IMG/VR virus record: IMGVR_UViG_3300023179_008562
Location: 1 to 64,000 of that record
DNA length: 64,000 bases
Source: a virus
Reading direction: 5' to 3' (one strand)
How positions within the stretch are numbered: position 1 is the stretch's first letter; each line of letters opens with the position of its first letter. Below, piece after piece: positions 1,652 to 41,945 of the stretch. A model generated the notes under the pieces. That model searched no databases. It was not told the origin of the DNA and was given only the letters and a program-made list of their open reading frames with translations. Both the position numbers and the translations under genes were made by a program.

Positions 1652-1789
1652 AACAACTCCTTTAAGGTGTATACGGTACCCAAGTTACTATTTCAAACTT
1701 AGATATACAATTTGTATGTAATATTATTTACATATTTTGTAAAAATCAGGGGTTAAATGTGTGTTTTTCTAATTATTCTGTCAGAATAA

Positions 1790-2017
1790 TTAGAGGCCGG
1801 GAGGTTGTGCTGCTGGTGCTTTGTATTGATTCTGCACTTGTTCCAGATCTTTCTCATGCTCCAACTTACGCACATCGTTCATGATTCGCAGGCGATTTAT
1901 CTGTCTGAGAGTTATTTTTGTCTTTCTCAGATCGTTCAATCGCATGACAGTGTTATCGTCCTTTTCAGTCCGATATCCTTTCATATTGTCATCATCAAAC
2001 ATTTCCATTAGGCGCAT
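1790..2017 (-). CDS. Small head-module protein (75 aa)
   Basis: Co-oriented ORF between portal and core protein; TAAATA motif at 2023-2028. Confidence 0.65.
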   Translation of the reverse strand: MRLMEMFDDDNMKGYRTEKDDNTVMRLNDLRKTKITLRQINRLRIMNDVRKLEHEKDLEQVQNQYKAPAAQPPGL

Positions 2018-2037
2018 GTAGTTATTTACTTAAAATG

Positions 2038-6580: not shown

Positions 6581-7441
6581 ATGGAAAATACACCGCAGAG
6601 ACCAGCGTCGACTAATCCTCTGGCCCGACATTTCAGACAGCCAGCAATTTATTTCCGACTGCCCAGCCAGGGCGCCCATTGGCCTGCCAATACTCTGACA
6701 CTGCCAGCGCACGGTGAAATTGGCATCATGCCCATGACCACTCGAGACGAAATCACACTCAAGACTCCTGATGCCTTGCTGAATGGTCAGGGTGTGGTCA
6801 GTGTGATTGAGAGTTGCTGCCCTGATATCCAGGATGCCTGGCAGATGCCCAGCATTGATGTGGACGCCACACTGATCGCCATACGCATCGCCAGTTATGG
6901 GCATCAGATGGATTTTGACACCACTTGCCCACATTGTGGGTCTACCAATGAGCATGCTATTGATCTGACCCAGGTGCTGAGTAATATTCAGGCACCAGAC
7001 TACAACACACCCCTGGACGTTGCGGGACTAAAAATCACTCTGAAGCCACAGCCCTATTTCAGTGCCAACAAAACCAACATGATTGCCTTTGAAGAACAAC
7101 AGTTGCTACGCACCCTGGGGGACATTGAAGATGATCCTGAATCAGCCAAAGCCAGATTTGATCAGCACCTGAGCAAAGTGATTGAACTGAATATTGGTCT
7201 GTTGAGCACCAGTACTGCGGCCATTATCACCGACGACGGCACTGTGGTGACTGACCAGCAATACATTAGTGAATTTTTCAACAATGCCGACAACCGTGTG
7301 ATCAAAGCGGTACAACGACGTCTGAAAGAATTGTCAGAAGAGGCCGGAATTAAACCCATCATTGTGGTATGTCTGAATCCAGACTGTCAGAAAGAATTCC
7401 CAGTCAGCATAACTTTCGATTATTCAAGTTTTTTCGGCTAA
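6581..7441 (+). CDS. Baseplate hub/tail assembly chaperone (T4 gp26-like)
   Basis: LPSQG, PMTTRDEITLKTPDALLNG, IAIRIASYG, CPHC and CLNPDC zinc-binding motifs of the gp26-like family; AGGA SD. Confidence 0.75.
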   Translation: MENTPQRPASTNPLARHFRQPAIYFRLPSQGAHWPANTLTLPAHGEIGIMPMTTRDEITLKTPDALLNGQGVVSVIESCCPDIQDAWQMPSIDVDATLIAIRIASYGHQMDFDTTCPHCGSTNEHAIDLTQVLSNIQAPDYNTPLDVAGLKITLKPQPYFSANKTNMIAFEEQQLLRTLGDIEDDPESAKARFDQHLSKVIELNIGLLSTSTAAIITDDGTVVTDQQYISEFFNNADNRVIKAVQRRLKELSEEAGIKPIIVVCLNPDCQKEFPVSITFDYSSFFG

Positions 7442-7665
7442 GGCTCTTGACTCTGGACCCAGACGCGGTCCAGAAACTGATCGACGGATACGAACGAGAC
7501 GTAAGAGCCTATAAAGATGATGCGTTGAGACTGTGCTGGTACATGCGCGGTGGGTTAAGTTACGACGATGCCATGCTGTTGTCATCAACTGATCGTGAAT
7601 TAATTGGTAAATTGGTCAAAGACAACTTAGAAACTACCAAAAAGTCCAACATGCCATTCTTTTAA
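7429..7665 (+). CDS. Small downstream ORF (gp51-like or chaperone extension), probably reached by -1 frameshift from the gp26-like gene
   Basis: Frame is -1 relative to the upstream gene; slippery T TTT TTC at 7429-7435; product has LCWYMRGGLSYDDAMLLS; no good independent start. Confidence 0.65.
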   Translation, partial: FFRLRLLTLDPDAVQKLIDGYERDVRAYKDDALRLCWYMRGGLSYDDAMLLSSTDRELIGKLVKDNLETTKKSNMPFF

Positions 7666-8083
7666 GATGTACTTCGTACATCTGCATTTTCGCTTGCGCT
7701 CAATGCCTTTTTTTCCTACTCTGGACATTCTGGATAACTTTGATGCTTTTAAGTGCTTTATCTAGATTCTAGTCATACTTCACCTATCACAGGCAAAGTA
7801 TGATGGTCTTTATCTGAGTCCCACACCATACCAACCAAAAGAGATTTGTGCTTGTCATGTGCACAGCGGAGGCGGTCAGCCGGTACCCCCTACTCTAGCT
7901 TCATCTGACGGACGCTGATATAGCCGTGGTTAGCCAACTATATCCGACGCATGGGTTGTGCCTTTTTCACAGAGCCCACATCCTTGGGTTTTTACACCTA
8001 GAAGTCCGGTGCCGTCTCTGCAAGGTCTAGTCCTTGCGTTCCATGTGCGGCCATCACGCGAGCACAATCACCTGAGACACAGC
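7665..8083 (-). ncRNA. Candidate ~420-nt structured non-coding RNA (or ssDNA origin-like element), family not identified
   Basis: Only long gene-free gap in the window; at least 8 stems readable by eye; the imperfect pairs are G-U on the minus strand and A-C on the plus strand. Confidence 0.55.
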
Positions 8084-8623
8084 TTACGCTGCAACAGTGG
8101 CTATTTGGTTACTGCAAAGTTCTGCAAATTTGTTGCTATTTAATTCAAAAAACAAATCCATGTCCATGATGAACCAGTGACCATGATGCTGTGTGCCATA
8201 ATTGAAGTGCCGGGTCAAGAATAAATTGGTGTGATTGGGTTGTGCCTGAAATGCTACGTATCGACCTTTGCGGTTAAACTTCATGAACAGTATGTTGAAA
8301 TCGCCTGTGTCAGCTGCATCCATACACTGTTCAATCCATTGATCTAAAATTTTAACTGAGCCTTGAAATAATTGATGAAAGGGAAAATCTTTGTAACTCT
8401 TGCATTCAGCATTCAATGCTGAGAAACTTTCACCAGGAACAATGTCACCTTTGAAACTGCGAATTTGTCCCTGATGCAAGAATTGTTTTCTAATGTTGTT
8501 GGTACCACCCACATAAGCCCCTGATCCTGGCGCGCGAATAAACGTCTGACCGAACTGTTGAGTCAGATACCGGGCGACTTCGCGCTCCCAACTGCTGCCT
8601 TTGGCTTTCTGTGGGCTGGGCAT
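8084..8623 (-). CDS. Holliday junction resolvase, Hjc/PD-(D/E)xK type
   Basis: KAKGSSWEREVA, RAPGSGA, GDIV, AECKSY motifs. Confidence 0.8.
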   Translation of the reverse strand: MPSPQKAKGSSWEREVARYLTQQFGQTFIRAPGSGAYVGGTNNIRKQFLHQGQIRSFKGDIVPGESFSALNAECKSYKDFPFHQLFQGSVKILDQWIEQCMDAADTGDFNILFMKFNRKGRYVAFQAQPNHTNLFLTRHFNYGTQHHGHWFIMDMDLFFELNSNKFAELCSNQIATVAA

Positions 8624-28775: not shown

Positions 28776-31700
28776 ATGGCCGCAAGAAAAAGTTCAAATT
28801 TATTGCCAGGTGTATTTCAGACCGATACCAATCAGAAATTTTTATCTGCAACTGTGGATCAGCTGATATCCGAACCCAGACTAACCAAAGTCAACGGATA
28901 CATAGGCAGAAAGTTTGCGCCCACCTACAAGTCTGGTGACAACTACATCACAGAAATCAGTGCTGACAGACAAAACTATCAACTTGAGCCCAGTCTGTTG
29001 GTCAAGGATGAGTCTGGTCAGATAACTTTCTTTGCCAGTTATGACGATTTTCTAAACAAGATAAAATACTACGGTGGTTTTACTGATAAACAAAGTCGTC
29101 TGTTTGAGCAGGAATATTATAGTTTTGATCCTGGTATCAGTTACGACGCATTTGTTAACTTTAGTCAATATTACTGGCTCCCCGACGGTCCTGAAGCAGT
29201 GTCAGTGAATACCACCACAATTGAGTTGGTGAAAAATTTCCGAGTTGTCAGAAATGTTGCCAGTGACCGATATGACTTTTATGATAACAATATTGTCAAT
29301 AACAGCATTACTCTGGCACGTGGCGGCACTTACACATTTACGGTCAATCAGCCAGGTATACCTTTCTGGATACAGACTGAACTGGGAATCGACGGAGCAA
29401 TTAATGCCACACCTGCTATATCGTCACGTGACGTTTTGGGCGTGGAAAACAATGGGACTGATTCGGGTGTTATAACTTTCCGAGTGCCTCAGTCAGATGC
29501 ACAGGACCGTTTTGTCAAGATGAAAACAGTCTACAATGTGGATTATGCATTCTCCATGGCATATGCCGACATACATAATTCCCGACTGTCTGAGTTTCTA
29601 GAAAAGTTTCCAGAATATTATGGGATAACCAATCAGTTCGTTGGTAAAACCCTGGTTTTGGTTGACCAAAATCTTTTAACCAGTCGAGGTGAAGCAGCCT
29701 GGTCTGGCGATGGCATCTACGATGAGCAGAATTATAATACAAACCCATTTGATTCCAGTGACATCATACCAGAGAATCAGAGATCCGGGGTCTGGCAAAT
29801 ACTTTATTCAGAATCAGGAGTTCCAGAAGATCCAATCATAAAACTGGTACCAGTTCTGGTACTCAAACAAGATCAGAAAGTTTTTGTCAAATCTGGCATT
29901 CGAGCCAGTCGGGAATTTTATCAGGACTATGATGGCCTACTGAAACCCATGCCATTGTTGAGCAATCTACAGGATACTTTGTATTTTCAGGATGGCGACA
30001 GTGCCGGCATTTATGGATTTTTAAAAGTAGTCAATCCTGCCAATGATGTCATTGATGTTGACCGAGAGATCATTGGCAAGAAACTCTACACCAGCCCCAA
30101 TGGTGTCAAATTCACCAATGGTTTGAAAGTCAGATTTGGTTCAGATGTCAGCCCTGTACAATATCAGAACCAGGAGTTTTATGTTGAACGGGTAGGGCGC
30201 GGTATACATCTGGTGCCAGTTGATATTCTGGTGCGTCCCGAAGCATACAATGATGAAATTGCCCAGAATTATTCAGATGAAATTTTTCCTGAATACATCA
30301 CTATTAATCGTGATTCCATTGATCTGAATGCCTGGTCCAGAAACAACCGATGGTTCCATATTGACGTCATAATTAAAACTGCAGCCTATAATAATCGCCA
30401 GCCGGCGTTGGACCAGCGAGCGCGTGCACAAAGACCTATTATACAGTTTGATGTCAACTTTCAGTTGTTCAATAATGGTAGAACCGCCAAGAAGCCCATT
30501 GACATCCTGGACGTCACTACTAGTGATCCGTTTAATGCCTACGACGGTCAGATCATTGAATCAATTTTCGGTATCAAACCTTTTGATGGAATGCGTATCC
30601 TGTTTTCAGCAGCTGAAGATCCATTGGTGAGAAATAAGATTTATGTCATTAATCTCATACAGTATGATCTAGATGATTCTGGGTTGCCAACAGGACCACG
30701 ACGTATTGCCTTGTCTATTGCCGAGGACGGAGATGCCGCTGTCTGGGATTCAGTGGTGGTCACGCAAGGGCAATATCGGGGCGTCACCTGGTGGTTCAAT
30801 GGTAACCAATGGGTCCAGGGCCAGCAAAAAACACAATTGCAGCAAGAACCCCTGTTTGACATCATTGATTCAGATGGTCGTAGTTTGTCAGAGTTTTACC
30901 GCAGTACATTTAACGGAACTCGACTTTTTGGTTATGTAAGAAATGCCGCTGGGGTCACCGATAAAATTTTGGGATTTGCTCTGAAATACAGAAATTTCGG
31001 TACCCAGGGCGACATTGAATTTGAAAATTACTATGACACTGATGTGTTTAGTTATGTTGAAAATCAACTCACACAGAGTGATTTGAGAATTTCTGATTAC
31101 GGATTCCTTTATGAGATTCAGTCTGACGGGGAACTTGCCCCAAGAAACAACTGGCGCACAGCAGTGGAATCCAGCCGGCAGTATCAGATTTTAAACTTTA
31201 CATACGATGGCATTAATAATTCGTTTCAGCTGGATGTTGTTGCTGCGGAATCGACCAGTGTGCCCAGTCTGAAAGTATATAAAAATAATGTTTTTCTTCA
31301 GACCAATGAATATCAACTTGTCGATAATAAATTAACTGTCACTGCGTCATTGGCGACTAATGACAAAATTGATGTATTAATTTATAGCCGGAAACCCAGT
31401 AATATTGGATATTATGAAGTTCCCAGTAACTTAAACTTAAACGCACAGAACATAGACCTGAATCAGATATCTCTGGGGCAGGTGAGAAATCATCTGGTGG
31501 CTTTGAGCCAGAATTCCACAGAACTAGTGGGTAATATTCTGTCCACAAACAATCTCAGAGACATTGATATAACCTCACAGGGCGGCACCATACTACAGCA
31601 CAGTGCACCGGTGACATACTCCATGCTGTTTTTGATGGATAAGTCTGCAAATTTCATTGATGCATTGCGATTTGCACAACTAGAGTACAGTAAGTTTAAA

Positions 31701-34700
31701 AATAAGTTTTTGGAATTGGCTCAGACTCTGGGTGGCATTGAATCCATGACACCCGAGGCTGGTGTTGATGCCATTATGGTGAGTTTGACCAATATTAAAA
31801 ATATATCGTTCCCCTGGTATTATAGTGATATGGTACCATATGGTACGCTCAAGAGAGTGGTCAATGGACAGGGTTACACAGTATTTGATCCTCTGGTTCG
31901 TTCATACGAAATCAATGGAGTGTTTAATGATCAAGTATTAAGTAGCCGTGCAGTTCTGGTCTATCTGAAAAAATACAATCAGAATAATTTTGTGCAACTG
32001 ATTAACCGTTTAGATTATACATTTGATCAAACTCGTCCAGCCGTTACTATTGAAAGTCGTGTGGAACTGGACATAGATGATGTTATCAAAATTGTTGAAT
32101 ATGACAACACTGATGGCAATTATATACCCGAGACCCCCACCAAATTGGGGTTATATCCCAGATATGTGCCTGAAATTTTTCTAGACAATACCTATAGACA
32201 ACCCATAAATGTCATCAGAGGTCATGATGGTAGTATTATTCCAGCATTTAACGATTATCGAGATAATCTGATATTGGAACTGGAAAAAAGAATTTACAAT
32301 AATATAAAATTACCAGAGACAAATATCAACAGTGATATAATGTCATTGACTCCCGGCAAGTTCAGATCATCCGATTATACTCTGGGCGAAGTCACACAAC
32401 TGATTTCCCGAAGTTTTCTGGCCTGGGTGGGAAACAATCGATTGGACTTTTCCACCAATCAGACCTTTGCCAGCAACGATTCATTTACCTGGAATTATTC
32501 GGGCAGTCAGGACAGAATTGACGGCGAATACATGCCTGGAAATTGGCGTGCATGTTATCAATATTATTACGACACACAGCGACCACATCTGACACCCTGG
32601 GAAATGCTGGGATTTACTTCCCAGCCAGACTGGTGGCAGGACTATTATGGGCCTGCTCCCTACACTGGTGCCAATCAGGTGCTGTGGGATGATCTGGAAG
32701 CCGGTAGAATCAGACAGGGATTTAGAAGCCTGATAGATCAGGGGCAGGGCCCAGGCATTGATCCCACCTTTGCCAGACCCGGTCTCAGTCAGGTAATACC
32801 TGTGGACGAACATGGAATATTACTGAGCCCAGCTCAGATTTTGGCCAGATCCACCCATCCCAAATCTGCGGCCAGTGCCTGGAAAGTGGGGGATTTTGGT
32901 CCCGTCGAATGGGCCTGGCGCAGCAGCAGTGATTATCCTTTCGCAGTTCAACGTGCCATGGCTCTGGGAAAACCAGCCAGATATTTTGGGCTGTTAATCG
33001 ATACGTATGGATACAAATCAGACAGTCTGATTGATCAATATCTGACACCCAATAAAAATCACCTCAGGCAGACCGATGTCAAATTTAACGGCGATATTAC
33101 TCAGACTGGCGTAGTCAGAAGTGCCGGTTACATAAACTGGATCATTGATTATCTGAAAAACCAGGGCCTGGATCCTGTGAGCAAATTGTCATATATTCTG
33201 AAAAATTATCAGGTCAATCTGGCCTACAAGATGTCAGGGTTTACTGACAAAAAATTTATTCGGGTCCTGGCAGAGCAAAGTAGCCCCAGCAGCACCAATG
33301 ACAGCATTATGATTCCTGATGAAAACTATCAGATTCATTTGCATAAATCAACCCCCATACAGAAACTCACATACAGTGCAGTGATTGTACAAAAAACAAC
33401 CAATGGGTACAGTGTCAAGGGATACAATTTAAACAATCCTTTCTTTACCATTATACCCAGCCAGACCAACAATAACAGCACCAAAATACAGGTCTTAACC
33501 GAAATTGCAACTATTTTTAAAGACTATCAGAGAGTCAAACTCACTGTGCCTTATGGTTATGAATTTAAAAATCCGCAGCAAGTGGTGGATTTTCTCATAA
33601 GTTATGAGCGATATCTTCTGAGTCAGGGGTTTACATTTAATGGGCGAGATCCCGACCTCAGGCAGCCTCGTAACTGGAAACTCAGTGCGCAGGAATTTTT
33701 ATTCTGGTCACAGCAGGGCTGGGGTGTTGGCAGTATTTTGGTTTTGAGTCCCACGGTCAATGATCTGGCCCTGGTGACCAAAAATGCTGTGGTTGATGAA
33801 ATTAGCAATAGCCAGATTGGGTCAAGAATTCTTGATCAGAATTTCAAACTTGTCAAGAACAACAACTACAATGTGGTGAGAACTCCCACAGATTTTAAAA
33901 TATCATTGTCTGTCACCGGTAGCACAATTGGATTTGTGGAATTGGACCTGGTACAGTACGAACACGCATTAATTTTTGATAATCTCACAGTTTTTAATGA
34001 CATCATTTACAAACCAGAACTGGGCAATCGACAATATCGATTAAAATTAATCGGACAGAAGACCTCAAACTGGGACGGCAGTCTGAATGCACCGGGATTC
34101 GTATACAGTTCTGATCAGATTCAAACCTGGCAGCCTGGCCGAGATTACCAGAGAGGCGAACTTGTGCAATACAAGGCACAGTACTGGGTGGCGCTGGAAT
34201 TTGTGATTGCCACCACTGATTTTGCCTGGACCAAGTGGAAACAGATTGAGCAGTCGCAAGTCCGTGTTGGTATGCTACCAAATCTTTCTACTCTGGCGGT
34301 TAAAGGTCTGATTTCTTACGACAATTACGGGCAGATACAGGATTCAGATCAGTTGAAATACAGCTATGGGTTAATTGGATATAAACCCAGGCAGTATCTG
34401 ACAGATTTGGGTCTTTCAGACGCCACACAGATTGAACTTTACAAAGGATACATTAAGCAGAAGGGCACAGAAAATGCGGTCAATCAGCTGACCAAATCCA
34501 AATTCAATAACATTAATAGCGATATCAAATATTACGAAGAGTGGGCGGTGCGTGTGGGTGAGTACGGGGCGTTAAACATGAATCCCTATGTGGAAATCGC
34601 TCTGGACGAAACTAATTTTGGAGTCAATCCTTCCCTGGCCAGGTTTGTTGAGGATACGTCAAGGGATCAGGGTGATGGTATTACAGTTTTCAATAAAACA

Positions 34701-37700
34701 CAGTTATACGGGTCATCTGGGCACTTCAGTGGGTTTGTGGCACTAAACCGATCAGTGATCAGTGATATTAGTAATGACATTCCCACAGCTGGGTACGTTA
34801 ACATTGAAGATATAGATGCCACTTTATTTGATCTCAGCTATTATTCATACATTGGGTTAGATATAGATTACGTTGGCAGTGGTTACACCATCTGGTGTGC
34901 TCGAGATTTTGCCGGTGATTGGAACGTTTATCGAGTTACTGAAACCGACAACCACATTATCAGTGTTGCCAACAGTTTAGACAACTATGTGTCATTCACC
35001 ACACAGGCACCACATCAATTAACTATTGGTGATGTGTTTTTGGTCAAAGGACTGAATTCTGCATTTGATGGGTTTTATCGAGTTCACCAGACCCAGGGAC
35101 TTGATCAGATTATTGCTCTCTATCAGGGTGATCCCGCAAATTATCAAAATTTAACTTCTCTAGACGGATTTGCCATGTTACTCAGACTGGACAGCATGCG
35201 ATTCCGATACATGGAAGATGCCAGAATTTATGGTCTCAACAACCCCCTGCATGGGTGGAAAGCCGGAGATAAAATTTGGATTGATGTGGATGCGGCCACC
35301 ACAACAGCAAATGGTCAAAGTCAGGACACTGAAAGTGGAACCTGGAAGGTCTACGAGAAAACCATGCCCTGGGGGCTACAGCAGAACTTATCCAAGGCGT
35401 CTGGGGAATATGTGACCAATGATGGTTTTGGCACTTCAGTTAAAATGAATGCCGACGGGTTATACGCAGTTGTTGGGTCACCCAAATCTCTGAACACCGG
35501 CACAGTCACAGTATTCAATAAAAACGCTTCAGGAGTGTTGGTCGAAGGAGAACAATTATTACCTAAATTGGATCAGACTCTGGATTACGGCGCCGAGGTC
35601 AGTCTGGCCACTGAAAGGCTTGCAATCGGTGCCCCTGGCAGTGTCAGTAATACGGGTAGAGTCTTTGTTTACAACCGACCCACCGGGACCAGTACATTTT
35701 TACCAACACAGGTATTATCAGGACCAGCAAACTCTGCTGGGCGATTCGGATCCAGCCTGACATTTGATGAAGTTGGAAACTGGCTGTATGTTGGTGCTCC
35801 TGATGAAGACCGAGTATATGTGTATGGATTAAATCCCAGGGTCTCAGTCAAAACACAATCTCTGGCCATAAACTCTCCCACAAATATCATTACATTGTCC
35901 TTCAGTCCTGATGTTCCCAACAATGCCGAATCTTTGCTAATCACCGGAGTCAATCGAATATTTTTACCAGATATTGATTATACAGTTACTGGTAGAATTA
36001 TAACATTTGCATCCAATTTAAGTTCTGGTGATTATGAAATCACACAAAGAAGTTACTACACATTGGTAAAAGTGCTTACTGGTCCTGCTGGCAGCGAATT
36101 TGGATATGCTGTCAGTGCCAGTCTGGATGGTGCGCAATTGGCAGTTGGTGCACCAAATGATTCAGTCACGGTCGATGATGCAGCCATCCCTGGTGCTGGT
36201 GCAGTGTATGTCTATGACCGATCCATTGAAGCGTTTAACACCATCACTGATGCCACTGACACCGAAGGTGTGACTTATCAGACACGGGGTAATATTGGGT
36301 TGATCTATCGAGTCACCATCAATAACACTGAAGTCTCTGACTATGTTGTTGCTGGTGACCATACTCTGAAATTTAAGAAAACCCCAGTTATTGGCCAGGT
36401 CATTTATGTTGAGACCAATGAATTTAAATTGTTGGAAAAATTAATTGGCATCGACAGTCTGGAGGGTGGGCTAACAGCCATACAGGAAAACTGCAGATTT
36501 GGTACAAGCCTGACCATTTGCAGCAACAACTGTGCCATCTATGTGGGTGCTCCCAATTACGATGCTGGTACACAGTATAACACTGGTGCAGTCTGGAAAT
36601 TTCATAATCGAGGCAGATTGTATGGCACCAACACTGGCAGCACACGAGACCCAGTGTTCACACCAGGTGACACCATACGATTGGACAATTTTGAAATCAC
36701 TGTCACTGGCACCAGTCTGGATGATCTGGTTCAAGACATTAACAATGCCAGCGTCTTGGGTGTGACTGCAACTAACCAAAACGGACACCTGCGTCTGGAC
36801 AGTGATCGAACCGTGGCCAAAAATCTCTTGCGAATTCTCAGTGGTGAGAACAACACCGGGGATACTGACGGGGTCAGTAACGTTTATGCTGCTGCTGGCT
36901 TGTCAGTATTTGCGTTTATGCAAATTATCGTCACGCCCTATCGAAATGCCAATGAACAATTCGGTAAACGGGTTGTGCTGGCACGAAATGCCTACATGTT
37001 GGTGATTGCCAGTGATGGTGGCACCACCAGACATTATACTACTTTTGATCAGGATCAGACCTACATAGACGATCGTTCCACCGGTATATTTGATTCAGTC
37101 GTGAACAGCGGTAGTGTATACATATATGAATTATACGATGACCCCCGCAATGAGGTGGAACATCCGGGCAGATACGCATTTGCTCAGCAGCTGGACCCTG
37201 GCCAACTCAGAGCAGGAGATCGATTTGGTGCCGCCATAGATGTTGTGGGTCGTCAGATAGTGGTCACCGCACCGACGTCTGATCTGGTAAAAACCGACGC
37301 CGGCGCAGTTTATGTATTCAACAATCCCACAGGTCACAGAGGTTGGCATCTGATCAGATATCAGGAACCCAGGGTTGATATTGAAACTGTAAACAGAATG
37401 TATCTGTATGACACTATTTCACATACCATTTTAACTAATTTAGAATTTATTGATCCTGCCAAGGGAAAAATATTGGGCCTGGCCGAACAAGAAATTACTT
37501 TCAAAACTCCATATGACCCAGCCTATTACAATCGTGGCGCATCAACCCAGACTGATCTGGATCGCAATCTCTACTGGGGCCCATCACAGATTGGTCAGGT
37601 CTGGTGGAACCTGGACAACGTCAGATATCTGGATTACGAGCAGGGTGATTTGAGTTATAGAAGTGCCAACTGGGGCAGGGTATTCCCGGGATCAACAGTT

Positions 37701-40700
37701 GAAGTCTGTGAATGGGTGGAAAGTGACGTCCTGCCCAGTCAGTATTCTGGTGACGGCCAGGCCAAGCATGCCGACGACAGCGCCTATGTTGAGATCATGA
37801 CAGTGGATCCAGTCACCAACATAATAACCAGCAAATACTACTATTGGGTCACCGGAAAAACAGAATTAGACTATAACATCCCATTTAGAAAACTACCCCT
37901 GAATTCCATTCGAAATCTGATTGAAAATCCCAGAAATCAGGACATTGCATATGCTGCATTGATTCGAAATAATGCTGTGGTGTTTTACAACCTGGGAAAA
38001 TATTTGTCAGCACGCAATACCATATTACACCTGGACTATGAATTACAGCCCAACGATAGTCTGATACATAGCGAATATGACTTGTTACAGGTTGGTAATG
38101 TCAGCAGTGCCATACCTGAAAAAATTGTCAATAGGATGATTGACAGTTTATCGGGGATCAACAACACCGGAGCAAATGTGCCTGATCCAACATTGCCTCC
38201 GGCCAATCGTTATGGTATTAGTATCAGACCCAGACAGACCATGTTTGTGGACCGATTGCAGGCCATGTCGGATCTGGTGGACTTCGTTAATTCCATATTC
38301 ATCACAAAGCCCATCACCAGACAATACGATCTCAGACAACTGATGTCAGAGGAGCCCATACCAGATGTAAAATATTCAGAATATGATCATCAGGTGGAAA
38401 CCAGAATTGAACTGGATTATATTGACACGGTTAAAACACCTGTGGGGTATCGGGTATTGGTCAAAATAGACACCACCCAGGATGGCTTATGGGTAATATA
38501 TCAACTACGGTCAGACCGGACCTGGCAGGTGACCAGGGTTCAGAGGTATAAAACTGAACTGTATTGGGATTTCGTTGATTGGTATGCTGAGGGCTACAAC
38601 ATCACTGATAAAATAGAATATGTGGTGGAAACTCTAGTGGATGCTCTGGCATTGCCTGCCAGGCCGGGTGATGAAATATTAATTCGAGTAAATCGGGGAC
38701 TTAACAATGTCAGAGGTTGGAATTTAATTTCAGTCAGTGACAATGGTGAATTTCAGGTGGTTGGCATTGAAAATGGCACCATACAACTGAAATCATCACT
38801 ATACAATCTCACAGATAATCAATTGGGATTTGACGGTCGTGGATTTGATTCCAGCAGATATGATCAGAACCCAAATATTGAAATTCGACAAATTTTAGCA
38901 GCACTGAAGGATGACATTTTTGTCAATGAGTTGCGCTCCGAATTCAACAATTTGTTCTTTGTCATGATAAATTATCTGATGACCGAACAAAAATATGTGG
39001 ATTGGATTTTCAAAACCAGCTTCATTAGTGTGGCACACAAACTTCGTGATCTCAACCAATATCCCAATTATGTCAAAGATAATCAGACCTACTATCTGGA
39101 TTACATCAACGAAATCAAACCCTACGCAACCAAGGTCAGAGAATACCTGATCAAATATGCTGGTGATGACAATTACGCTGGTGATGTCACTGACTTCGAT
39201 CTGCCACCATACTATGACAGAGAACTTGGTCAGTGGAGAAGTCCGGACGGTGAGTATATTGAACAAGATCGACAACTCTGGGCCACCGGATATCTGGCTG
39301 ATGGTACGCTGATTAACCCAGATTACCCACAATGGTATCAACACAGACATCATCAGATTGTTGCGATTGTCGTTGAAGATTCTGGTCAGGGATATACATC
39401 TGAGCCCACTATCACCATCGTGGGCGGTGGTGGCAATGTGATAGCTGCCCGAGCACGCGCCCGGATAGATTTTGACACCGGGCAGGTTATTGACATTGAG
39501 ATTGTTAGTTCTGGTAATGGGTATGCCAGTACGCCCACGGTGGTAATCAATGGTAGTTGTGAACGCCCAGCGCGTGCATATGCAGTTTTAAAAAATTTAC
39601 AAGTCAGAAGCTTTGATTCAACCCTGAAGTTTGACAGAATCAACTATACCAGTCTGGTTAAAGAGTGGGCAGCAAACACTGTTTATGCGGCGGGTGATAT
39701 CCTGACTTACGCAGTGCCTGACGGTGGGACCCTGGTCAGAACGGCCTATCGTGTACTGAACAATATGGTTACTGGGGCACAATTTGACCCCACCAATCTG
39801 GAAATTTGCCCGGCGGATTACTTTACCAATGCCAATGACAGAATCATTGCCTATTATCAACCACTGACGGGCGCAGTGGGCAGAGATTTGAGAAAATTAA
39901 TATCAGGTATTGATTATCCGGGGGTGGGTATTACTGGGTTGACATTTGATCGGCAGCCGGGATTTGACGGACTATTAGATGGTGAGCCCTTTGATGCAGT
40001 GGAATATGACGAGGACGGAAACCCCATACTGAGTCGGTCTGCCGTTGACACAATCATTCGCAGCAACTATCTGGATAGTAATTTAGGTCTCAGACCCGAA
40101 GACATTGATGTCGATGGCGGTGCATATGTGGATACCTATAGTAGCCACGCTCCTGAAGAACTGGTGCCAGGCATAGTATTTGATACTTTAAATCTCAAAG
40201 TCTATACCAAGGTGGCTCTGGGAACAACACTTCTGGGGTATAGAATATTTGTTGATATGCTGGGAGTGCCTCACTATACCAGAATTGCATCTGCCTACTC
40301 CACCAAATTAACCAGAGATTTAAATCTAAATGATCAACGTATGTACGTGGCAGACGCCACCGTGTTGGCCAGACCTGATCCCACCACTGCCACACCAGGC
40401 GTGGTGTTTGTCAACGCCGAACGCATCACATACTATCGAAATTATGCCACTGAAGTCAGATTCTGGGTCCCCAATGTCAGTTATCGATCCGACACTGTGT
40501 TGAGCCACGGCAATATTATTACCTTCAGTGGCCCAGTGACTGCTAACATTGGCGATACCATCCATCAACCAGATTCTGGTGCTAACATCAGAGTGGTTTC
40601 CAATGTAGTGTCCAGTCTGGAGGTTCCAGCACAATATACATTATCGCAAGGGCGAATCGTTGGTAATGTGCTGATTATGGGATCGGGAACTGTACAAATA

Positions 40701-41945
40701 ATTGCCGCGGGTCAATTAAACGCCAGTAATTTATCAGTTTACCCCACTGACACTCGTACTGGATATTACCGCTCTCTGACAGAGCTGCCAGCGGCTACCA
40801 GCCTGGATTTTGACAATGTTGAGTTCATTGATGACATTAATATTTTGACTCAGCTAAGAAGAGGCACACAGGGAACCAAAGCTGGAATTCAGAGCGCCGG
40901 GTTGGCAGTGCTGGACGCTGGTGTAGATCAGAATATTCCTGGGATCAATATAACAGCAACAACCATTACTGGTAATGTGACATATCATACAACATCGACA
41001 CCGCCATACGAGTTATTACTGTCTGGTAATGTCGTACCCGAATTGGGCAGCTATATCACACAGTCCAGCAGTGGTGCAAATGTGACTGTGACTGCCATCA
41101 GTGATTCACCTGCTGACACCATTCAGTTAAGTGGGGTAATGTCTGCATTGCCGGGAGATTATATCACTCAACCCAGTACTGGTGCCAATGCTCTGATAAG
41201 AAACTCATCAGAAAACCAGATCTATCTGGACATTGTGTATACAGCAGGGCAATTTGGAATTGGGTCCGGTAACGTTTTCATCAACGGCAAAAACACTGGA
41301 GTATATCCCACCGCAGCCAAGCAACGTGGAGCATCACGCATTACTGTGACCTATAATACACCCACACCATTCGATTTCACAGATGCCACTATAGAATTAA
41401 GTGGAAGTGTCACAGTCAACTCCGGGGACTTGATTGGTCAACTCGTTGGTGGTGCTGAGCTACGGGCGAGTCGCACTACTATTGACTCTAATCGGATATA
41501 TACAGTTTACCAGAATACCAATGACCTTGTCATTGGTCAGGGCAATATACAGATCAACGGTCAGCCGACTTCAGTTTATCCAATAAATAGAACTTATAAT
41601 TCCACAATATCTAATGAAATCACCATTGACGGTGTTCGCCAACAGTTAATTTGCCCTGTGTCAGTGTCCTTGGTTGGTGGAACTGATGCAAACGGAAATG
41701 TGACACTGACCACAGGTACAAAAGTTTTACAAGAGAAAATTTGGTATAGTCCTGGTGTAGGCACTGCTGCCAACGGTGAGGGATTTGATACAACTTCAAC
41801 CGAGCAAGTTTTGTTCCTTAAACAGCGTGCTGCAGAATTACTGACCAGTTCGGAATTGTCTGATGAGGGCGATGAAGATATAGTAAATATACTAATTACT
41901 GAAGACGGAAAAATACTGTCGGCTGAGTTCGGAGGTTATCAATGA
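28776..41945 (+). CDS. Giant 4389-aa virion structural protein (baseplate wedge/gp7-like position) with FG-GAP beta-propeller repeats
   Basis: Uninterrupted 13.2-kb ORF after gp6; repeated FG(S/T/Y)..A.GAP motifs; W.P...Y..G carbohydrate-binding-like motifs; GQGYTSEPTITIVGGG repeats. Confidence 0.75.
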   Translation: MAARKSSNLLPGVFQTDTNQKFLSATVDQLISEPRLTKVNGYIGRKFAPTYKSGDNYITEISADRQNYQLEPSLLVKDESGQITFFASYDDFLNKIKYYGGFTDKQSRLFEQEYYSFDPGISYDAFVNFSQYYWLPDGPEAVSVNTTTIELVKNFRVVRNVASDRYDFYDNNIVNNSITLARGGTYTFTVNQPGIPFWIQTELGIDGAINATPAISSRDVLGVENNGTDSGVITFRVPQSDAQDRFVKMKTVYNVDYAFSMAYADIHNSRLSEFLEKFPEYYGITNQFVGKTLVLVDQNLLTSRGEAAWSGDGIYDEQNYNTNPFDSSDIIPENQRSGVWQILYSESGVPEDPIIKLVPVLVLKQDQKVFVKSGIRASREFYQDYDGLLKPMPLLSNLQDTLYFQDGDSAGIYGFLKVVNPANDVIDVDREIIGKKLYTSPNGVKFTNGLKVRFGSDVSPVQYQNQEFYVERVGRGIHLVPVDILVRPEAYNDEIAQNYSDEIFPEYITINRDSIDLNAWSRNNRWFHIDVIIKTAAYNNRQPALDQRARAQRPIIQFDVNFQLFNNGRTAKKPIDILDVTTSDPFNAYDGQIIESIFGIKPFDGMRILFSAAEDPLVRNKIYVINLIQYDLDDSGLPTGPRRIALSIAEDGDAAVWDSVVVTQGQYRGVTWWFNGNQWVQGQQKTQLQQEPLFDIIDSDGRSLSEFYRSTFNGTRLFGYVRNAAGVTDKILGFALKYRNFGTQGDIEFENYYDTDVFSYVENQLTQSDLRISDYGFLYEIQSDGELAPRNNWRTAVESSRQYQILNFTYDGINNSFQLDVVAAESTSVPSLKVYKNNVFLQTNEYQLVDNKLTVTASLATNDKIDVLIYSRKPSNIGYYEVPSNLNLNAQNIDLNQISLGQVRNHLVALSQNSTELVGNILSTNNLRDIDITSQGGTILQHSAPVTYSMLFLMDKSANFIDALRFAQLEYSKFKNKFLELAQTLGGIESMTPEAGVDAIMVSLTNIKNISFPWYYSDMVPYGTLKRVVNGQGYTVFDPLVRSYEINGVFNDQVLSSRAVLVYLKKYNQNNFVQLINRLDYTFDQTRPAVTIESRVELDIDDVIKIVEYDNTDGNYIPETPTKLGLYPRYVPEIFLDNTYRQPINVIRGHDGSIIPAFNDYRDNLILELEKRIYNNIKLPETNINSDIMSLTPGKFRSSDYTLGEVTQLISRSFLAWVGNNRLDFSTNQTFASNDSFTWNYSGSQDRIDGEYMPGNWRACYQYYYDTQRPHLTPWEMLGFTSQPDWWQDYYGPAPYTGANQVLWDDLEAGRIRQGFRSLIDQGQGPGIDPTFARPGLSQVIPVDEHGILLSPAQILARSTHPKSAASAWKVGDFGPVEWAWRSSSDYPFAVQRAMALGKPARYFGLLIDTYGYKSDSLIDQYLTPNKNHLRQTDVKFNGDITQTGVVRSAGYINWIIDYLKNQGLDPVSKLSYILKNYQVNLAYKMSGFTDKKFIRVLAEQSSPSSTNDSIMIPDENYQIHLHKSTPIQKLTYSAVIVQKTTNGYSVKGYNLNNPFFTIIPSQTNNNSTKIQVLTEIATIFKDYQRVKLTVPYGYEFKNPQQVVDFLISYERYLLSQGFTFNGRDPDLRQPRNWKLSAQEFLFWSQQGWGVGSILVLSPTVNDLALVTKNAVVDEISNSQIGSRILDQNFKLVKNNNYNVVRTPTDFKISLSVTGSTIGFVELDLVQYEHALIFDNLTVFNDIIYKPELGNRQYRLKLIGQKTSNWDGSLNAPGFVYSSDQIQTWQPGRDYQRGELVQYKAQYWVALEFVIATTDFAWTKWKQIEQSQVRVGMLPNLSTLAVKGLISYDNYGQIQDSDQLKYSYGLIGYKPRQYLTDLGLSDATQIELYKGYIKQKGTENAVNQLTKSKFNNINSDIKYYEEWAVRVGEYGALNMNPYVEIALDETNFGVNPSLARFVEDTSRDQGDGITVFNKTQLYGSSGHFSGFVALNRSVISDISNDIPTAGYVNIEDIDATLFDLSYYSYIGLDIDYVGSGYTIWCARDFAGDWNVYRVTETDNHIISVANSLDNYVSFTTQAPHQLTIGDVFLVKGLNSAFDGFYRVHQTQGLDQIIALYQGDPANYQNLTSLDGFAMLLRLDSMRFRYMEDARIYGLNNPLHGWKAGDKIWIDVDAATTTANGQSQDTESGTWKVYEKTMPWGLQQNLSKASGEYVTNDGFGTSVKMNADGLYAVVGSPKSLNTGTVTVFNKNASGVLVEGEQLLPKLDQTLDYGAEVSLATERLAIGAPGSVSNTGRVFVYNRPTGTSTFLPTQVLSGPANSAGRFGSSLTFDEVGNWLYVGAPDEDRVYVYGLNPRVSVKTQSLAINSPTNIITLSFSPDVPNNAESLLITGVNRIFLPDIDYTVTGRIITFASNLSSGDYEITQRSYYTLVKVLTGPAGSEFGYAVSASLDGAQLAVGAPNDSVTVDDAAIPGAGAVYVYDRSIEAFNTITDATDTEGVTYQTRGNIGLIYRVTINNTEVSDYVVAGDHTLKFKKTPVIGQVIYVETNEFKLLEKLIGIDSLEGGLTAIQENCRFGTSLTICSNNCAIYVGAPNYDAGTQYNTGAVWKFHNRGRLYGTNTGSTRDPVFTPGDTIRLDNFEITVTGTSLDDLVQDINNASVLGVTATNQNGHLRLDSDRTVAKNLLRILSGENNTGDTDGVSNVYAAAGLSVFAFMQIIVTPYRNANEQFGKRVVLARNAYMLVIASDGGTTRHYTTFDQDQTYIDDRSTGIFDSVVNSGSVYIYELYDDPRNEVEHPGRYAFAQQLDPGQLRAGDRFGAAIDVVGRQIVVTAPTSDLVKTDAGAVYVFNNPTGHRGWHLIRYQEPRVDIETVNRMYLYDTISHTILTNLEFIDPAKGKILGLAEQEITFKTPYDPAYYNRGASTQTDLDRNLYWGPSQIGQVWWNLDNVRYLDYEQGDLSYRSANWGRVFPGSTVEVCEWVESDVLPSQYSGDGQAKHADDSAYVEIMTVDPVTNIITSKYYYWVTGKTELDYNIPFRKLPLNSIRNLIENPRNQDIAYAALIRNNAVVFYNLGKYLSARNTILHLDYELQPNDSLIHSEYDLLQVGNVSSAIPEKIVNRMIDSLSGINNTGANVPDPTLPPANRYGISIRPRQTMFVDRLQAMSDLVDFVNSIFITKPITRQYDLRQLMSEEPIPDVKYSEYDHQVETRIELDYIDTVKTPVGYRVLVKIDTTQDGLWVIYQLRSDRTWQVTRVQRYKTELYWDFVDWYAEGYNITDKIEYVVETLVDALALPARPGDEILIRVNRGLNNVRGWNLISVSDNGEFQVVGIENGTIQLKSSLYNLTDNQLGFDGRGFDSSRYDQNPNIEIRQILAALKDDIFVNELRSEFNNLFFVMINYLMTEQKYVDWIFKTSFISVAHKLRDLNQYPNYVKDNQTYYLDYINEIKPYATKVREYLIKYAGDDNYAGDVTDFDLPPYYDRELGQWRSPDGEYIEQDRQLWATGYLADGTLINPDYPQWYQHRHHQIVAIVVEDSGQGYTSEPTITIVGGGGNVIAARARARIDFDTGQVIDIEIVSSGNGYASTPTVVINGSCERPARAYAVLKNLQVRSFDSTLKFDRINYTSLVKEWAANTVYAAGDILTYAVPDGGTLVRTAYRVLNNMVTGAQFDPTNLEICPADYFTNANDRIIAYYQPLTGAVGRDLRKLISGIDYPGVGITGLTFDRQPGFDGLLDGEPFDAVEYDEDGNPILSRSAVDTIIRSNYLDSNLGLRPEDIDVDGGAYVDTYSSHAPEELVPGIVFDTLNLKVYTKVALGTTLLGYRIFVDMLGVPHYTRIASAYSTKLTRDLNLNDQRMYVADATVLARPDPTTATPGVVFVNAERITYYRNYATEVRFWVPNVSYRSDTVLSHGNIITFSGPVTANIGDTIHQPDSGANIRVVSNVVSSLEVPAQYTLSQGRIVGNVLIMGSGTVQIIAAGQLNASNLSVYPTDTRTGYYRSLTELPAATSLDFDNVEFIDDINILTQLRRGTQGTKAGIQSAGLAVLDAGVDQNIPGINITATTITGNVTYHTTSTPPYELLLSGNVVPELGSYITQSSSGANVTVTAISDSPADTIQLSGVMSALPGDYITQPSTGANALIRNSSENQIYLDIVYTAGQFGIGSGNVFINGKNTGVYPTAAKQRGASRITVTYNTPTPFDFTDATIELSGSVTVNSGDLIGQLVGGAELRASRTTIDSNRIYTVYQNTNDLVIGQGNIQINGQPTSVYPINRTYNSTISNEITIDGVRQQLICPVSVSLVGGTDANGNVTLTTGTKVLQEKIWYSPGVGTAANGEGFDTTSTEQVLFLKQRAAELLTSSELSDEGDEDIVNILITEDGKILSAEFGGYQ

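What the first reader, a model, noticed from the sequence alone, without database searches (positions are those of the whole stretch)
7665..8083. About 420 nt of densely structured non-coding sequence between convergent genes: candidate large phage ncRNA or origin
Seen: stems at 8020-8037 (GCAAGG/CCTTGC), about 7952-7978 (TGGG..TGTG/CACA..CCCA), 7917-7944 (GATATAGTT/GGCTATATC), 7868-7890 (GGGGG..CGG-CTGA-CCG..CCTCC), about 7847-7865 (TGTGC/GCACA) and 7773-7803 (TCATACTTTGCCT/AGGTGAAGTATGA, 13 bp). Enclosing helices AC(T)TCTAG/CTAGAGT and GGATG/CGTCC would form a multi-branch fold. The imperfect pairs are G-U on the minus strand and A-C on the plus strand, which points to a minus-strand transcript starting right after the resolvase stop. 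It does not look like tRNA, tmRNA, RNase P or a group I/II core to me. This is the only large gene-free gap in a compact genome.
Basis: partly seen in the sequence, partly recalled or inferred. Interest (0 to 1): 0.75.

Follow-up and report, generated by a model that had tools for sequence, protein, structure and literature searches.

The report
Large twin-box RNA of lake phages
The 418-base gene-free gap encodes a real, doubly knotted non-coding RNA that is shared by well over a hundred giant freshwater phages and, more distantly, by cultured Klebsiella and E. coli jumbo phages; its job is unknown, and it carries one 7-letter word twice that always changes in both places at once.

Summary
The gap (window 7666-8083) is a non-coding RNA gene on the minus strand. 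Its two "enclosing helices" are not supported; the true long-range contacts are helix M/N and two pseudoknots. Homologs were found in 66 of 70 syntenic viral contigs and 109 of 119 contigs found by an RNA motif, none in 120 cellular-genome motif hits, and one copy per genome where checked.

Covariation is strong: 89-92% of cells paired against 68-77% in shuffles, 0 of 500 shuffles as high. G·U outnumbers A·C about 7:1, which fixes the strand.

Two 7-nt boxes about 52 nt apart are identical in 106 of 108 sequences and flipped together about 30 times.

No Rfam family matches the window. In subgroup-A relatives, however, the 5' third is Rfam Polynucleobacter-1 (RF01718), an orphan motif. Weak but compensated core homologs lie in 720-740-nt gaps of phages RaK2 and 121Q.

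This scan has already followed up the same RNA class on many other genomes. The window adds a variant without the Rfam domain, behind a PD-(D/E)XK nuclease.

Function unknown. Best guess: a stable trans-acting scaffold. An origin is unlikely.

The parts
7666..8083 (-). Whole ncRNA gene (about 418 nt, read 8083 to 7666). The 5' end abuts or overlaps the PDDEXK stop codon. The ends have not been mapped.
   Evidence: The nhmmer profile covers the whole gap in relatives. There is no conserved ORF.
8014..8078 (-). 5' domain of the window's subgroup: outer helix GUCUC/GAGAC (8074-8078 with 8014-8018) enclosing two hairpins, one of them 8020-8025 with 8032-8037.
   Evidence: fold_alignment of 5 subgroup members: 10 of 19 pairs compensated. 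Canonical in the window. No RF01718 match.
7995..8011 (-). H3 hairpin (8008-8011 with 7995-7998).
   Evidence: 3 of 3 pairs change on both sides, 84% of cells paired.
7951..7979 (-). H4: outer stem (7975-7979 with 7951-7955), inner stem (7968-7971 with 7957-7960) and a conserved A-rich loop GAAAAAG.
   Evidence: 98-100% paired; UA/GC/AU/CG at two positions.
7917..7944 (-). H5 hairpin (7936-7944 with 7917-7925). Its loop, 7928-7933, is the 5' strand of pseudoknot PK2.
   Evidence: 13-14 pairs change on both sides.
7905..7909 (-). Strand a of pseudoknot PK1 (GUCAG). It pairs with a' at 7875-7879, inside the loop of hairpin b.
   Evidence: 98.6% paired in 87 sequences on an alignment whose model did not contain this helix; UA/CG, GC/AU/GU and UA/AU/GC/CG.
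7893..7896 (-). Strand M (AGAG) of the long-range helix M/N. It pairs with N at 7840-7843.
   Evidence: Compensated variants GGAG/CUCC, UGGG/CCCA, UGAG/CUCA, GAGC/GCUC and CAAC/GUUG.
7868..7890 (-). Hairpin b (7886-7890 with 7868-7872). Its near-invariant loop GUACCGG-a'-CCG contains a' at 7875-7879.
   Evidence: 100% paired; GC/AU, GU/AU and GC/CG changes. It is the most conserved block of the family.
7847..7865 (-). Variable hairpin Hv (7861-7865 with 7847-7851). It is absent in subgroup A.
   Evidence: 4 of 4 pairs compensated.
7840..7843 (-). Strand N (CUCU) of helix M/N.
7831..7836 (-). 3' strand of pseudoknot PK2 (GGUUGG). It pairs with the H5 loop at 7928-7933.
   Evidence: 5-6 pairs change on both sides; CG/UA and GC/AU/UG/CG/UA.
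7809..7819 (-). Twin box X1 (ACUC-AGAUAA-A), probably in the loop of a short, variable stem.
   Evidence: Six-mer identical to X2 in 106/108 sequences. MI 0.87 and 0.84 bit with X2 only. About 30 joint flips. The closing stem is only 2-5 bp and tentative.
7773..7803 (-). 13-bp hairpin H13 (7791-7803 with 7773-7785), followed by a conserved UGAC.
   Evidence: A perfect hairpin of at least 7 bp in 105/106 sequences, 61 distinct arm sequences. Canonical in the window by direct reading.
7757..7767 (-). Twin box X2 (AUCU-AGAUAA-A). AUCURGAU is self-complementary.
7684..7706 (-). Hairpin Hg: covarying stem, conserved UGAGCG-NN-AGCGAA (tandem G.A, a GC/CG step, a GNNA loop), preceded by an A7 run. 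Read on the + strand it is a hairpin followed by U7, a likely terminator for the p98 operon.
   Evidence: 6 of 6 pairs compensated, including GC to AU inside the motif. No strand bias in these hairpins.
7666..7682 (-). Terminal hairpin Ht (7676-7682 with 7666-7672) with a C-GNA-G loop, starting right after the p98 stop codon on the + strand.
   Evidence: 98.4% paired, 7 of 7 pairs compensated.
8084..8623 (-). Upstream neighbour: PD-(D/E)XK nuclease, annotated as a Holliday-junction resolvase in cultured relatives. It is a fixed neighbour in this clade, not a shown partner.
   Evidence: Pfam PF24608, E = 9e-25. Annotations in isolates. The neighbour differs in other clades.

Best explanation
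The gap is the gene of a roughly 420-nt structured non-coding RNA, transcribed from the minus strand at the end of the gp55-gp47-gp46-...-resolvase gene run of an uncultured freshwater jumbo myovirus. It belongs to a large phage-specific family, called the 'twin-box' RNA in earlier notes of this scan. In subgroup A of that family, the 5' third is the orphan Rfam motif Polynucleobacter-1. The window's copy is a variant with a different 5' domain.

Shown: a conserved fold. It comprises a 5' domain, hairpins H3, H4 and H5, a core closed by helix M/N, hairpin b, and two pseudoknots (PK1 joins strand a to the loop of b; PK2 joins the H5 loop to the segment after N). The 3' domain shows two identical 7-nt boxes on either side of a 13-bp hairpin. 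Two terminal hairpins also serve as the terminator of the convergent baseplate operon.

Inferred (about 35-40% likely): it acts in trans as a stable scaffold. The knotted core would hold the two boxes in a fixed geometry, so that they engage two copies of one partner or each other. The boxes flip together about 30 times while no third site in the RNA follows them. A direct box-to-box constraint, or concerted copying between the boxes, is therefore more economical than a separately evolving partner.
For: Conservation and distribution:
- Homologs in 66/70 syntenic loci, always on the nuclease strand, and in 109/119 viral contigs found by an RNA motif, against 0/120 cellular motif hits.
- Inserted DNA lies on either side of the element, so it is a self-contained unit.
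- One copy in the window's record and in a 99%-complete 345-kb relative.

Structure:
- A3 (46 sequences): 91.5% of cells paired versus 76.7% shuffled, covariation score 0.405 versus 0.162; slid registers 0.05-0.10.
- A2 (73 sequences): 89.7% versus 68.3%, score 0.565 versus 0.215.
- A4 (87 sequences): PK1, which was not in the model, is 98.6% paired with three covarying positions.
- 3' hairpins: 95% paired, 13/13 pairs compensated.
- H13: a hairpin in 105/106 sequences.

Strand: G.U versus A.C is 325:40 and 338:55.

Twin boxes: identical in 106/108 sequences across 8 variants; MI 0.87 and 0.84 bit, all other columns at most 0.28 bit; Fitch changes 31 and 31 with 32 joint changes, 16 and 18 with 19, 27 and 24 with 28.

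Family links: RF01718 at 82-121 bits lies directly 5' of the R1 core in 13/20 relatives. RaK2 and 121Q carry compensated a/a' and b/b' in gene-free gaps that begin with a terminator and a GATATAAT box.

Transcription: a weak hint only. Two 151-nt contigs of one lake metatranscriptome cover 7822-8107.
Against: - No transcript ends, abundance or stability have been measured. The metatranscriptome cover has depth 2 and could be DNA carry-over.
- No sigma-70-type promoter was found directly upstream in the window, so the RNA may simply be the 3' end of the nuclease mRNA.
- No partner for the boxes was found within the RNA or in about 8 kb of flanks in 135 loci.
- The window's sequence alone folds no better than shuffles (z about -1.6).
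- The X1 closing stem is weak.
- The 5' domain of the window's subgroup rests on only five sequences.
- The RaK2 and 121Q matches score only about 15 bits.
Confidence: 0.75

Rival explanations
1. A cis-acting 3'-UTR element: the structure is simply the protected 3' end of the nuclease-operon mRNA, acting as a barrier to 3'-5' exonucleases and as an insulator or terminator between convergent operons.
For: The RNA starts within a few nucleotides of the stop codon of the upstream ORF in 148/162 loci. It sits at a convergent junction. Its last two hairpins have no strand bias and read as hairpin plus U7 on the + strand. No own promoter was detected in the window.
Against: About 350 nt with two pseudoknots, near-invariant unpaired nucleotides and the coupled twin boxes is far more than a terminator or decay barrier needs. 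The upstream gene varies: GIY-YIG, PD-(D/E)XK, a sigma factor, or unknown. In RaK2 and 121Q the element follows a terminator and a -10-like box, so it looks like its own unit.
Confidence: 0.13
2. A ribozyme: the knotted core is a catalytic centre (self-cleaving, ligating or other), and the twin boxes are substrate or processing sites flanking the 13-bp hairpin.
For: Size, multiple pseudoknots and highly conserved unpaired nucleotides are the features that mark known large ribozymes (general knowledge). Two identical sites flank a discrete hairpin.
Against: No match to any Rfam ribozyme family, even at E <= 10. No joint or excised form appears in the few RNA contigs (table 5). Nothing was tested biochemically.
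Confidence: 0.1
3. A guide or adaptor RNA for the adjacent small nuclease: the twin boxes would pair with the two identical half-sites of a palindromic DNA or RNA target.
For: A small nuclease gene (SegE-type GIY-YIG in 65 loci, PD-(D/E)XK in 56) ends right at the RNA's 5' end. Two identical single-stranded words are what a two-fold symmetric target would need (inference).
Against: The neighbour is not constant. In 121Q it is a sigma factor, and several clusters have no nuclease domain. SegE-type genes are free-standing homing endonucleases that typically lodge beside conserved genes (established for T4 seg genes). No complementary site turns up in the flanks. An external target would need three-way co-changes about 30 times. 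Earlier follow-ups in this scan reached the same negative view (unchecked notes).
Confidence: 0.05
4. A DNA element: a replication origin or iteron pair, or a structured origin-primer transcript.
For: Two direct repeats about 52 bp (five helical turns) apart, and an A-rich run. T4-type phages do use transcripts as origin primers (established for oriF and oriG).
Against: Selection acts on RNA features, which have no meaning in duplex DNA: G.U pairs versus A.C at 7:1, and pseudoknot covariation. The locus is a convergent junction, not a divergent one. The repeat does not recur elsewhere in the window.
Confidence: 0.03
5. A hidden or decayed protein-coding gene.
For: Some relatives have open frames of 90-120 aa in the gap.
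Against: Those frames differ in strand, phase and length. The window's longest stop-to-stop frame is 50 aa. Similarities among gap frames occur in all six frames, which is the signature of nucleotide-level conservation.
Confidence: 0.01

Closest known systems
Polynucleobacter-1 RNA motif (Rfam RF01718; Weinberg et al. 2010, PMC2864571)
   Same: In subgroup-A homologs, RF01718 (141 positions) matches at 82-121 bits and lies directly 5' of the core shared with the window's RNA. The habitat is the same: fresh water. Its function is likewise unknown.
   Different: The window's copy does not match RF01718, not even at E <= 10; its 5' domain is different. RF01718 covers only the first third. The core with two pseudoknots, the twin boxes and the 3' hairpins are not in Rfam. 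The 2010 table lists it for Burkholderiales and fresh water or estuary, not as a phage RNA.
GOLLD and ROOL large ornate RNAs (Rfam RF01998, RF03087; cryo-EM in PMC12286853)
   Same: Large, ornate, pseudoknotted RNAs, often phage-borne, of unknown function. GOLLD was also first seen in lake metagenomes. X2 (AUCURGAU) is self-complementary, which would allow RNA-RNA contacts between molecules (inference).
   Different: No Rfam match at all. This RNA is smaller (about 420 versus about 580-800 nt). No tRNA genes are nearby. No evidence of oligomers.
CsrB/RsmZ-type sponge RNAs (works-like comparison only)
   Same: They show copies of one short word in loops and linkers for a dimeric binder.
   Different: Here there are only two copies, the word is not a fixed GGA motif, it is embedded in a rigid knotted fold, and the copies covary by identity.
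T4 gene 60 translational bypass (matched take-off and landing sites about 50 nt apart)
   Same: A T4-like phage; two identical words about 50 nt apart around a hairpin; most box variants contain UGA or UAA.
   Different: No ORF enters the first box. The second box is followed by the same stop codon. Rare variants lack a stop. Considered and rejected.

Membership tests
Rfam RF01718 Polynucleobacter-1 | Covariance-model score at or above the gathering score (37 bits) | tested here: not met
   No hit in the window at gathering or at E <= 10 over 7400-8300. Met in 13/20 relatives, all subgroup A, at 82-121 bits and in the 345-kb relative.
Twin-box RNA family (full-length RNA containing RF01718 in subgroup A), as defined here | Match to the core model R1 (H5, M/N, b; 114 positions) | tested here: met
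   Window 7819-7951, minus strand, 57.4 bits, E = 5e-12, single copy. The window was one of the 73 seed sequences, so it matches partly by construction. Non-seed relatives also match.
Twin-box RNA family | Pseudoknot PK1: the segment after CCG pairs with the loop of hairpin b | tested here: met
   Window GUCAG/CUGAC. 98.6% paired with three covarying positions in 87 sequences, and the helix was not in the model.
Twin-box RNA family | Pseudoknot PK2: the H5 loop pairs with the segment after N | tested here: met
   Window CUAACC/GGUUGG. 5-6 pairs compensated.
Twin-box RNA family | Two identical 7-nt boxes 45-60 nt apart around a hairpin | tested here: met
   Window AGAUAAA at 7809-7815 and 7757-7763. 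106/108 identical family-wide.
Twin-box RNA family | Position directly behind a small nuclease gene | tested here: met
   PDDEXK_15 gene ends at 8084. Family-wide the neighbour is GIY-YIG (65 loci), PD-(D/E)XK (56) or another gene, so this is a tendency and not a rule.
tRNA, tmRNA, RNase P, group I/II introns, 6S, GOLLD, ROOL, HEARO and all other Rfam 15 families | Match to the family model | tested here: not met
   ARAGORN found 0 genes. cmscan found nothing at gathering and only chance-level hits at E <= 10.
Intrinsic terminator of the + strand operon (3' 55 nt only) | Stable hairpin followed by a U run on the + strand | tested here: inconclusive
   Read on the + strand, Hg is followed by T7, and Hg and Ht show no strand bias. 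The simple terminator scan did not call it.
Replication origin | Initiation of DNA synthesis; iterons bound by an initiator; skew switch | not testable with these tools
   Only indirect evidence is available, and it argues against: RNA-type constraints and a convergent junction. The local skew profile is uninformative.

The most novel reading that the evidence does not exclude
The twin boxes touch each other base for base: a register-parallel pairing of identical letters (A.A, G.G, U.U) held in place by the knotted core. That would be a tertiary motif not known from natural RNAs, in a new class of large phage RNA that may be catalytic or self-assembling.

This reading explains three things: identity rather than complementarity is conserved, any word is tolerated as long as both copies carry it, and no third site co-varies. 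The evidence does not exclude it, and nothing tests it directly.
Probability: 0.1. Interest if true: 0.9.

Novelty: new variant of a known kind. Interest (0 to 1): 0.6.

Why it matters
Large, multiply knotted RNAs are rare, and those whose function is known are mostly ribozymes or cores of essential ribonucleoproteins. This one is widespread in giant freshwater phages and single-copy where checked. It has been catalogued publicly only as a 141-nt orphan fragment since 2010.

The window shows that the Rfam fragment is a replaceable module: the pseudoknotted core and the twin boxes persist without it.

The compensated core homologs in RaK2 (Klebsiella) and 121Q (E. coli) would make the class testable by ordinary phage genetics.

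The identity-coupled boxes are a constraint that ordinary base-pairing models do not predict. Explaining them should reveal either a new RNA-RNA contact or an unusual mode of concerted evolution.

Tried and rejected
- **Folding the window's sequence alone:** z about -1.6 on both strands, uninformative.
- **Global MAFFT plus RNAalifold on all gaps:** too gappy, almost no structure returned. Subgroup runs were inconsistent.
- **Register problems:** R1 and MAFFT keep subgroup B one or two columns out of register at M/N, PK2 and H13. H13 and the X1 stem were therefore analysed sequence by sequence.
- **Box as a genome-wide promoter word:** it does not recur in the window.
- **Complementary partner for the boxes:** none inside the RNA or in the flanks.
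- **tRNA genes near expanded loci:** none.
- **blastn against cultured phages:** no match with the window or a subgroup-A copy.
- **R1 in other phage genomes:** nothing in SCTP-2, Phosso, PA5oct, phiR1-37 or two complete distant relatives.
- **PA5oct ncRNA002 and ncRNA004 (RNA-seq defined):** 11-12 bits only; the b-like module in ncRNA004 has a different order of elements, inconclusive.
- **Motif hits in cellular genomes:** all 120 are chance matches.
- **Metatranscriptome runs X16, X18, X19:** they cover only the flanking genes; no conclusion was drawn from parts without cover.
- **Ideas dropped:** gene-60-type bypass, CsrA-type GGA sites, a tRNA-anticodon 'specifier' reading (AUG/AUA/CGA/GAA followed by A) and RF2 stop-codon mimicry. 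Each explains part of the box variants, but none explains the coupling at positions 1 and 7.

Full report
**What is there.** The window is part of a 90.7-kb IMG/VR record estimated at 26% complete, which implies a jumbo phage. Complete relatives measure 345-385 kb. The 418-nt gap at 7666-8083 lies between two convergent genes. On the + strand is a baseplate-type gene pair: p286 (Pfam T4_baseplate) and p98. On the minus strand is a PDDEXK_15 nuclease gene, annotated as a Holliday-junction resolvase in cultured relatives. That gene closes a minus-strand run containing Hc1-like, radical-SAM, gp46/47-like and gp55-like genes. ARAGORN and Rfam find nothing in the window. The sequence on its own folds no better than shuffles, with z about -1.6 on either strand.

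**Conservation.** Using the nuclease protein as bait, 70 related viral loci were fetched. Synteny is conserved, and a gap of 380-500 nt persists down to about 53% nuclease identity. The gaps hold no conserved ORF; similarities between them occur in all six frames, so the conservation is at the nucleotide level. An nhmmer profile finds the element in 66 of the 70 loci, always on the nuclease strand. Where the gap is expanded to 1.2-3.7 kb, the extra DNA lies on either side of the element, so it behaves as a unit. A 19-nt degenerate core motif then retrieved 119 or more further viral contigs, of which 109 carry the whole element. All 120 motif hits in cellular genomes lack it. The locus is held by lake and freshwater metagenomes of about 15 studies.

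**Structure.** Reading the alignments and scanning all column pairs blindly gave the same helices. They were then tested with the count of structure pairs.

| Alignment | Sequences | Cells paired vs shuffled | Covariation score vs shuffled | Notes |
|---|---|---|---|---|
| A3 (window's subgroups B/E, H3 to GUGAC) | 46 | 91.5% vs 76.7% | 0.405 vs 0.162 | 36 of 50 pairs change on both sides; 0/500 shuffles as high; slid registers 0.05-0.10 |
| A2 (all subgroups, H5 to GUGAC) | 73 | 89.7% vs 68.3% | 0.565 vs 0.215 | |

A covariance model of the nested part (R1, 114 positions) aligned 91 copies. On that alignment, pseudoknot PK1 is 98.6% paired, with UA/CG, GC/AU/GU and UA/AU/GC/CG exchanges. PK1 was not in the model, so this is an independent test. 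PK2 has 5-6 compensated pairs. The 13-bp hairpin is a perfect hairpin of at least 7 bp in 105/106 sequences, with 61 different arms. The two 3' hairpins are 95% paired, with 13/13 pairs compensated. The 5' domain of the window's small subgroup (5 sequences) folds as an outer helix around two hairpins, with 10/19 pairs compensated. Every helix is canonical in the window itself.

All six local stems are confirmed. The two 'enclosing helices' are not: 59% pairing for one, and 81% pairing without compensation for the other. The CUAGAG segment instead covaries with the CUCU segment 50 nt downstream, forming helix M/N.

**Strand.** Across the supported core pairs, G.U outnumbers A.C by 325:40 and by 338:55. 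The last two hairpins show no bias (9:14). On the + strand they follow the p98 stop codon and end in U7, so they probably also terminate the convergent operon. The conserved UGAGCG-NN-AGCGAA motif (tandem G.A plus a GNNA loop) only makes sense on the minus strand.

**Transcription.** Evidence is weak. One lake metatranscriptome holds two read-length contigs over 7822-8107 at depth 2. The other RNA runs cover only the neighbouring genes.

**Twin boxes.** Box X1 (7809-7819) and box X2 (7757-7767) flank the 13-bp hairpin. Their six-mers are identical in 106/108 unique sequences across eight variants: AGAUGA, GGAUGA, AGAUAA, GGAUAA, ACAUGA, ACCGAA, ACGAAA and GACGAA. Mutual information between matching positions is 0.87 and 0.84 bit. 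No other column of the RNA exceeds 0.28 bit, and that includes the hairpin between the boxes. This rules out an internal complementary partner, and it rules out simple linkage or recombination of haplotype blocks.

On a tree built from the other columns, position 1 changed at least 31 times in each box with only 32 joint changes. Positions 5 and 7 behave alike. No complementary word is enriched in about 8 kb of flanks in 135 loci, and the word is not a genome-wide motif. A separately encoded partner would need about 30 three-way co-changes. A direct box-to-box constraint, or concerted copying between the boxes with selection for two equal sites, is more economical. This remains unexplained.

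**Relation to what is known.** Earlier notes of this scan describe the same class on many other genomes. They name Rfam Polynucleobacter-1 as its first third and suggest copies in cultured jumbo phages. I tested both claims.
- RF01718 matches 13 of 20 family members at 82-121 bits, directly 5' of the R1 core. In the 345-kb relative, RF01718 lies at 207544-207679 and R1 at 207391-207502. The window and its subgroup have no RF01718 match.
- In RaK2 and 121Q, R1 gives only about 15 bits. Both hits sit in gene-free gaps of 740 and 722 nt, 373 and 371 nt behind the upstream gene. The two phages keep a/a' (GUUGC/GCAAC versus GUCAU/AUGAC) and b/b' (AGGGG/CCUCU versus GAGAG/CUUUC) by compensatory changes. 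The gaps begin with a terminator hairpin and a GATATAAT box. I regard these as probable homologs.
- SCTP-2, Phosso, PA5oct and phiR1-37 give nothing convincing.
- In the paper library only the 2010 catalogue mentions the motif.

**Neighbours.** In the motif-derived set, which is unbiased with respect to neighbours, the ORF ending at the RNA's 5' end is most often a SegE-type GIY-YIG endonuclease (65 loci). Next come the PD-(D/E)XK nuclease (56 loci, mostly from the bait set) and several unknown proteins. In 121Q it is a sigma-70-like factor. The neighbour is thus not a fixed partner. Seg-type homing endonuclease genes typically lodge next to conserved genes (established for T4).

**Verdict.** This is a real minus-strand ncRNA gene: a new variant (different 5' domain, PD-(D/E)XK neighbour) of a widespread phage RNA class that is publicly known only as an orphan fragment. 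How it works is unknown. I commit, at roughly 35-40%, to a stable trans-acting scaffold whose knotted core positions the two boxes. The rivals are a cis-acting 3'-UTR element (about 13%), a ribozyme (about 10%), a nuclease guide (about 5%), an origin (about 3%) and a coding gene (about 1%).

Noticed in passing
NC_019526 (RaK2) 279606-280344; NC_025447 (121Q) 90233-90954: Gene-free gaps of 740 and 722 nt hold a probable distant homolog of the core (compensated a/a' and b/b'). Each gap begins with a terminator hairpin and a GATATAAT box. In 121Q the upstream gene is a sigma-70-like factor. Neither record annotates an RNA there.
   Followed up: partly
NC_071039 (PA5oct) 246116-246734 (ncRNA004 of PMC7318152): This RNA-seq-defined 619-nt ncRNA contains a hairpin GAGG...CGG-UGCC-CG-CCUC that resembles hairpin b, with a matching upstream CCGGCA. 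The order of elements differs from this family, and R1 scores only 12 bits.
   Followed up: partly
L009-L013, L016-L018, L020-L025, L031, L058, L059, L066 (gaps of 1.2-3.7 kb): Extra ORFs are inserted on either side of the RNA in several relatives. Representatives of 238-356 aa have no Pfam match.
   Followed up: partly
window 7369-7665 and 6581-7441: In relatives, only residues of about 28-99 of p98 are conserved, that is, the part beyond its overlap with p286.
   Followed up: no
window 7666-7706 and all relatives: The terminal hairpin loop is almost always C-GNA-G (GAA, GUA or GCA). The preceding hairpin carries an invariant UGAGCG-NN-AGCGAA in which G-C changes to A-U in a coordinated way. 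Both are conserved far beyond what a terminator needs.
   Followed up: partly
window about 7826-7830 and 7770-7773, and relatives: A second short word, RUGAC, also occurs twice, each time 5-8 nt before a twin box. The 3' domain may be a tandem duplication of a module of about 25 nt.
   Followed up: no
window 1652-2037: This is the only other apparent gap between large ORFs. It holds a 75-aa ORF (1790-2017, minus strand) co-oriented with its neighbours, so it is probably a small gene and not a second RNA.
   Followed up: partly
window 28776-41945: A single 4389-aa ORF, presumably a giant virion protein. Not examined.
   Followed up: no
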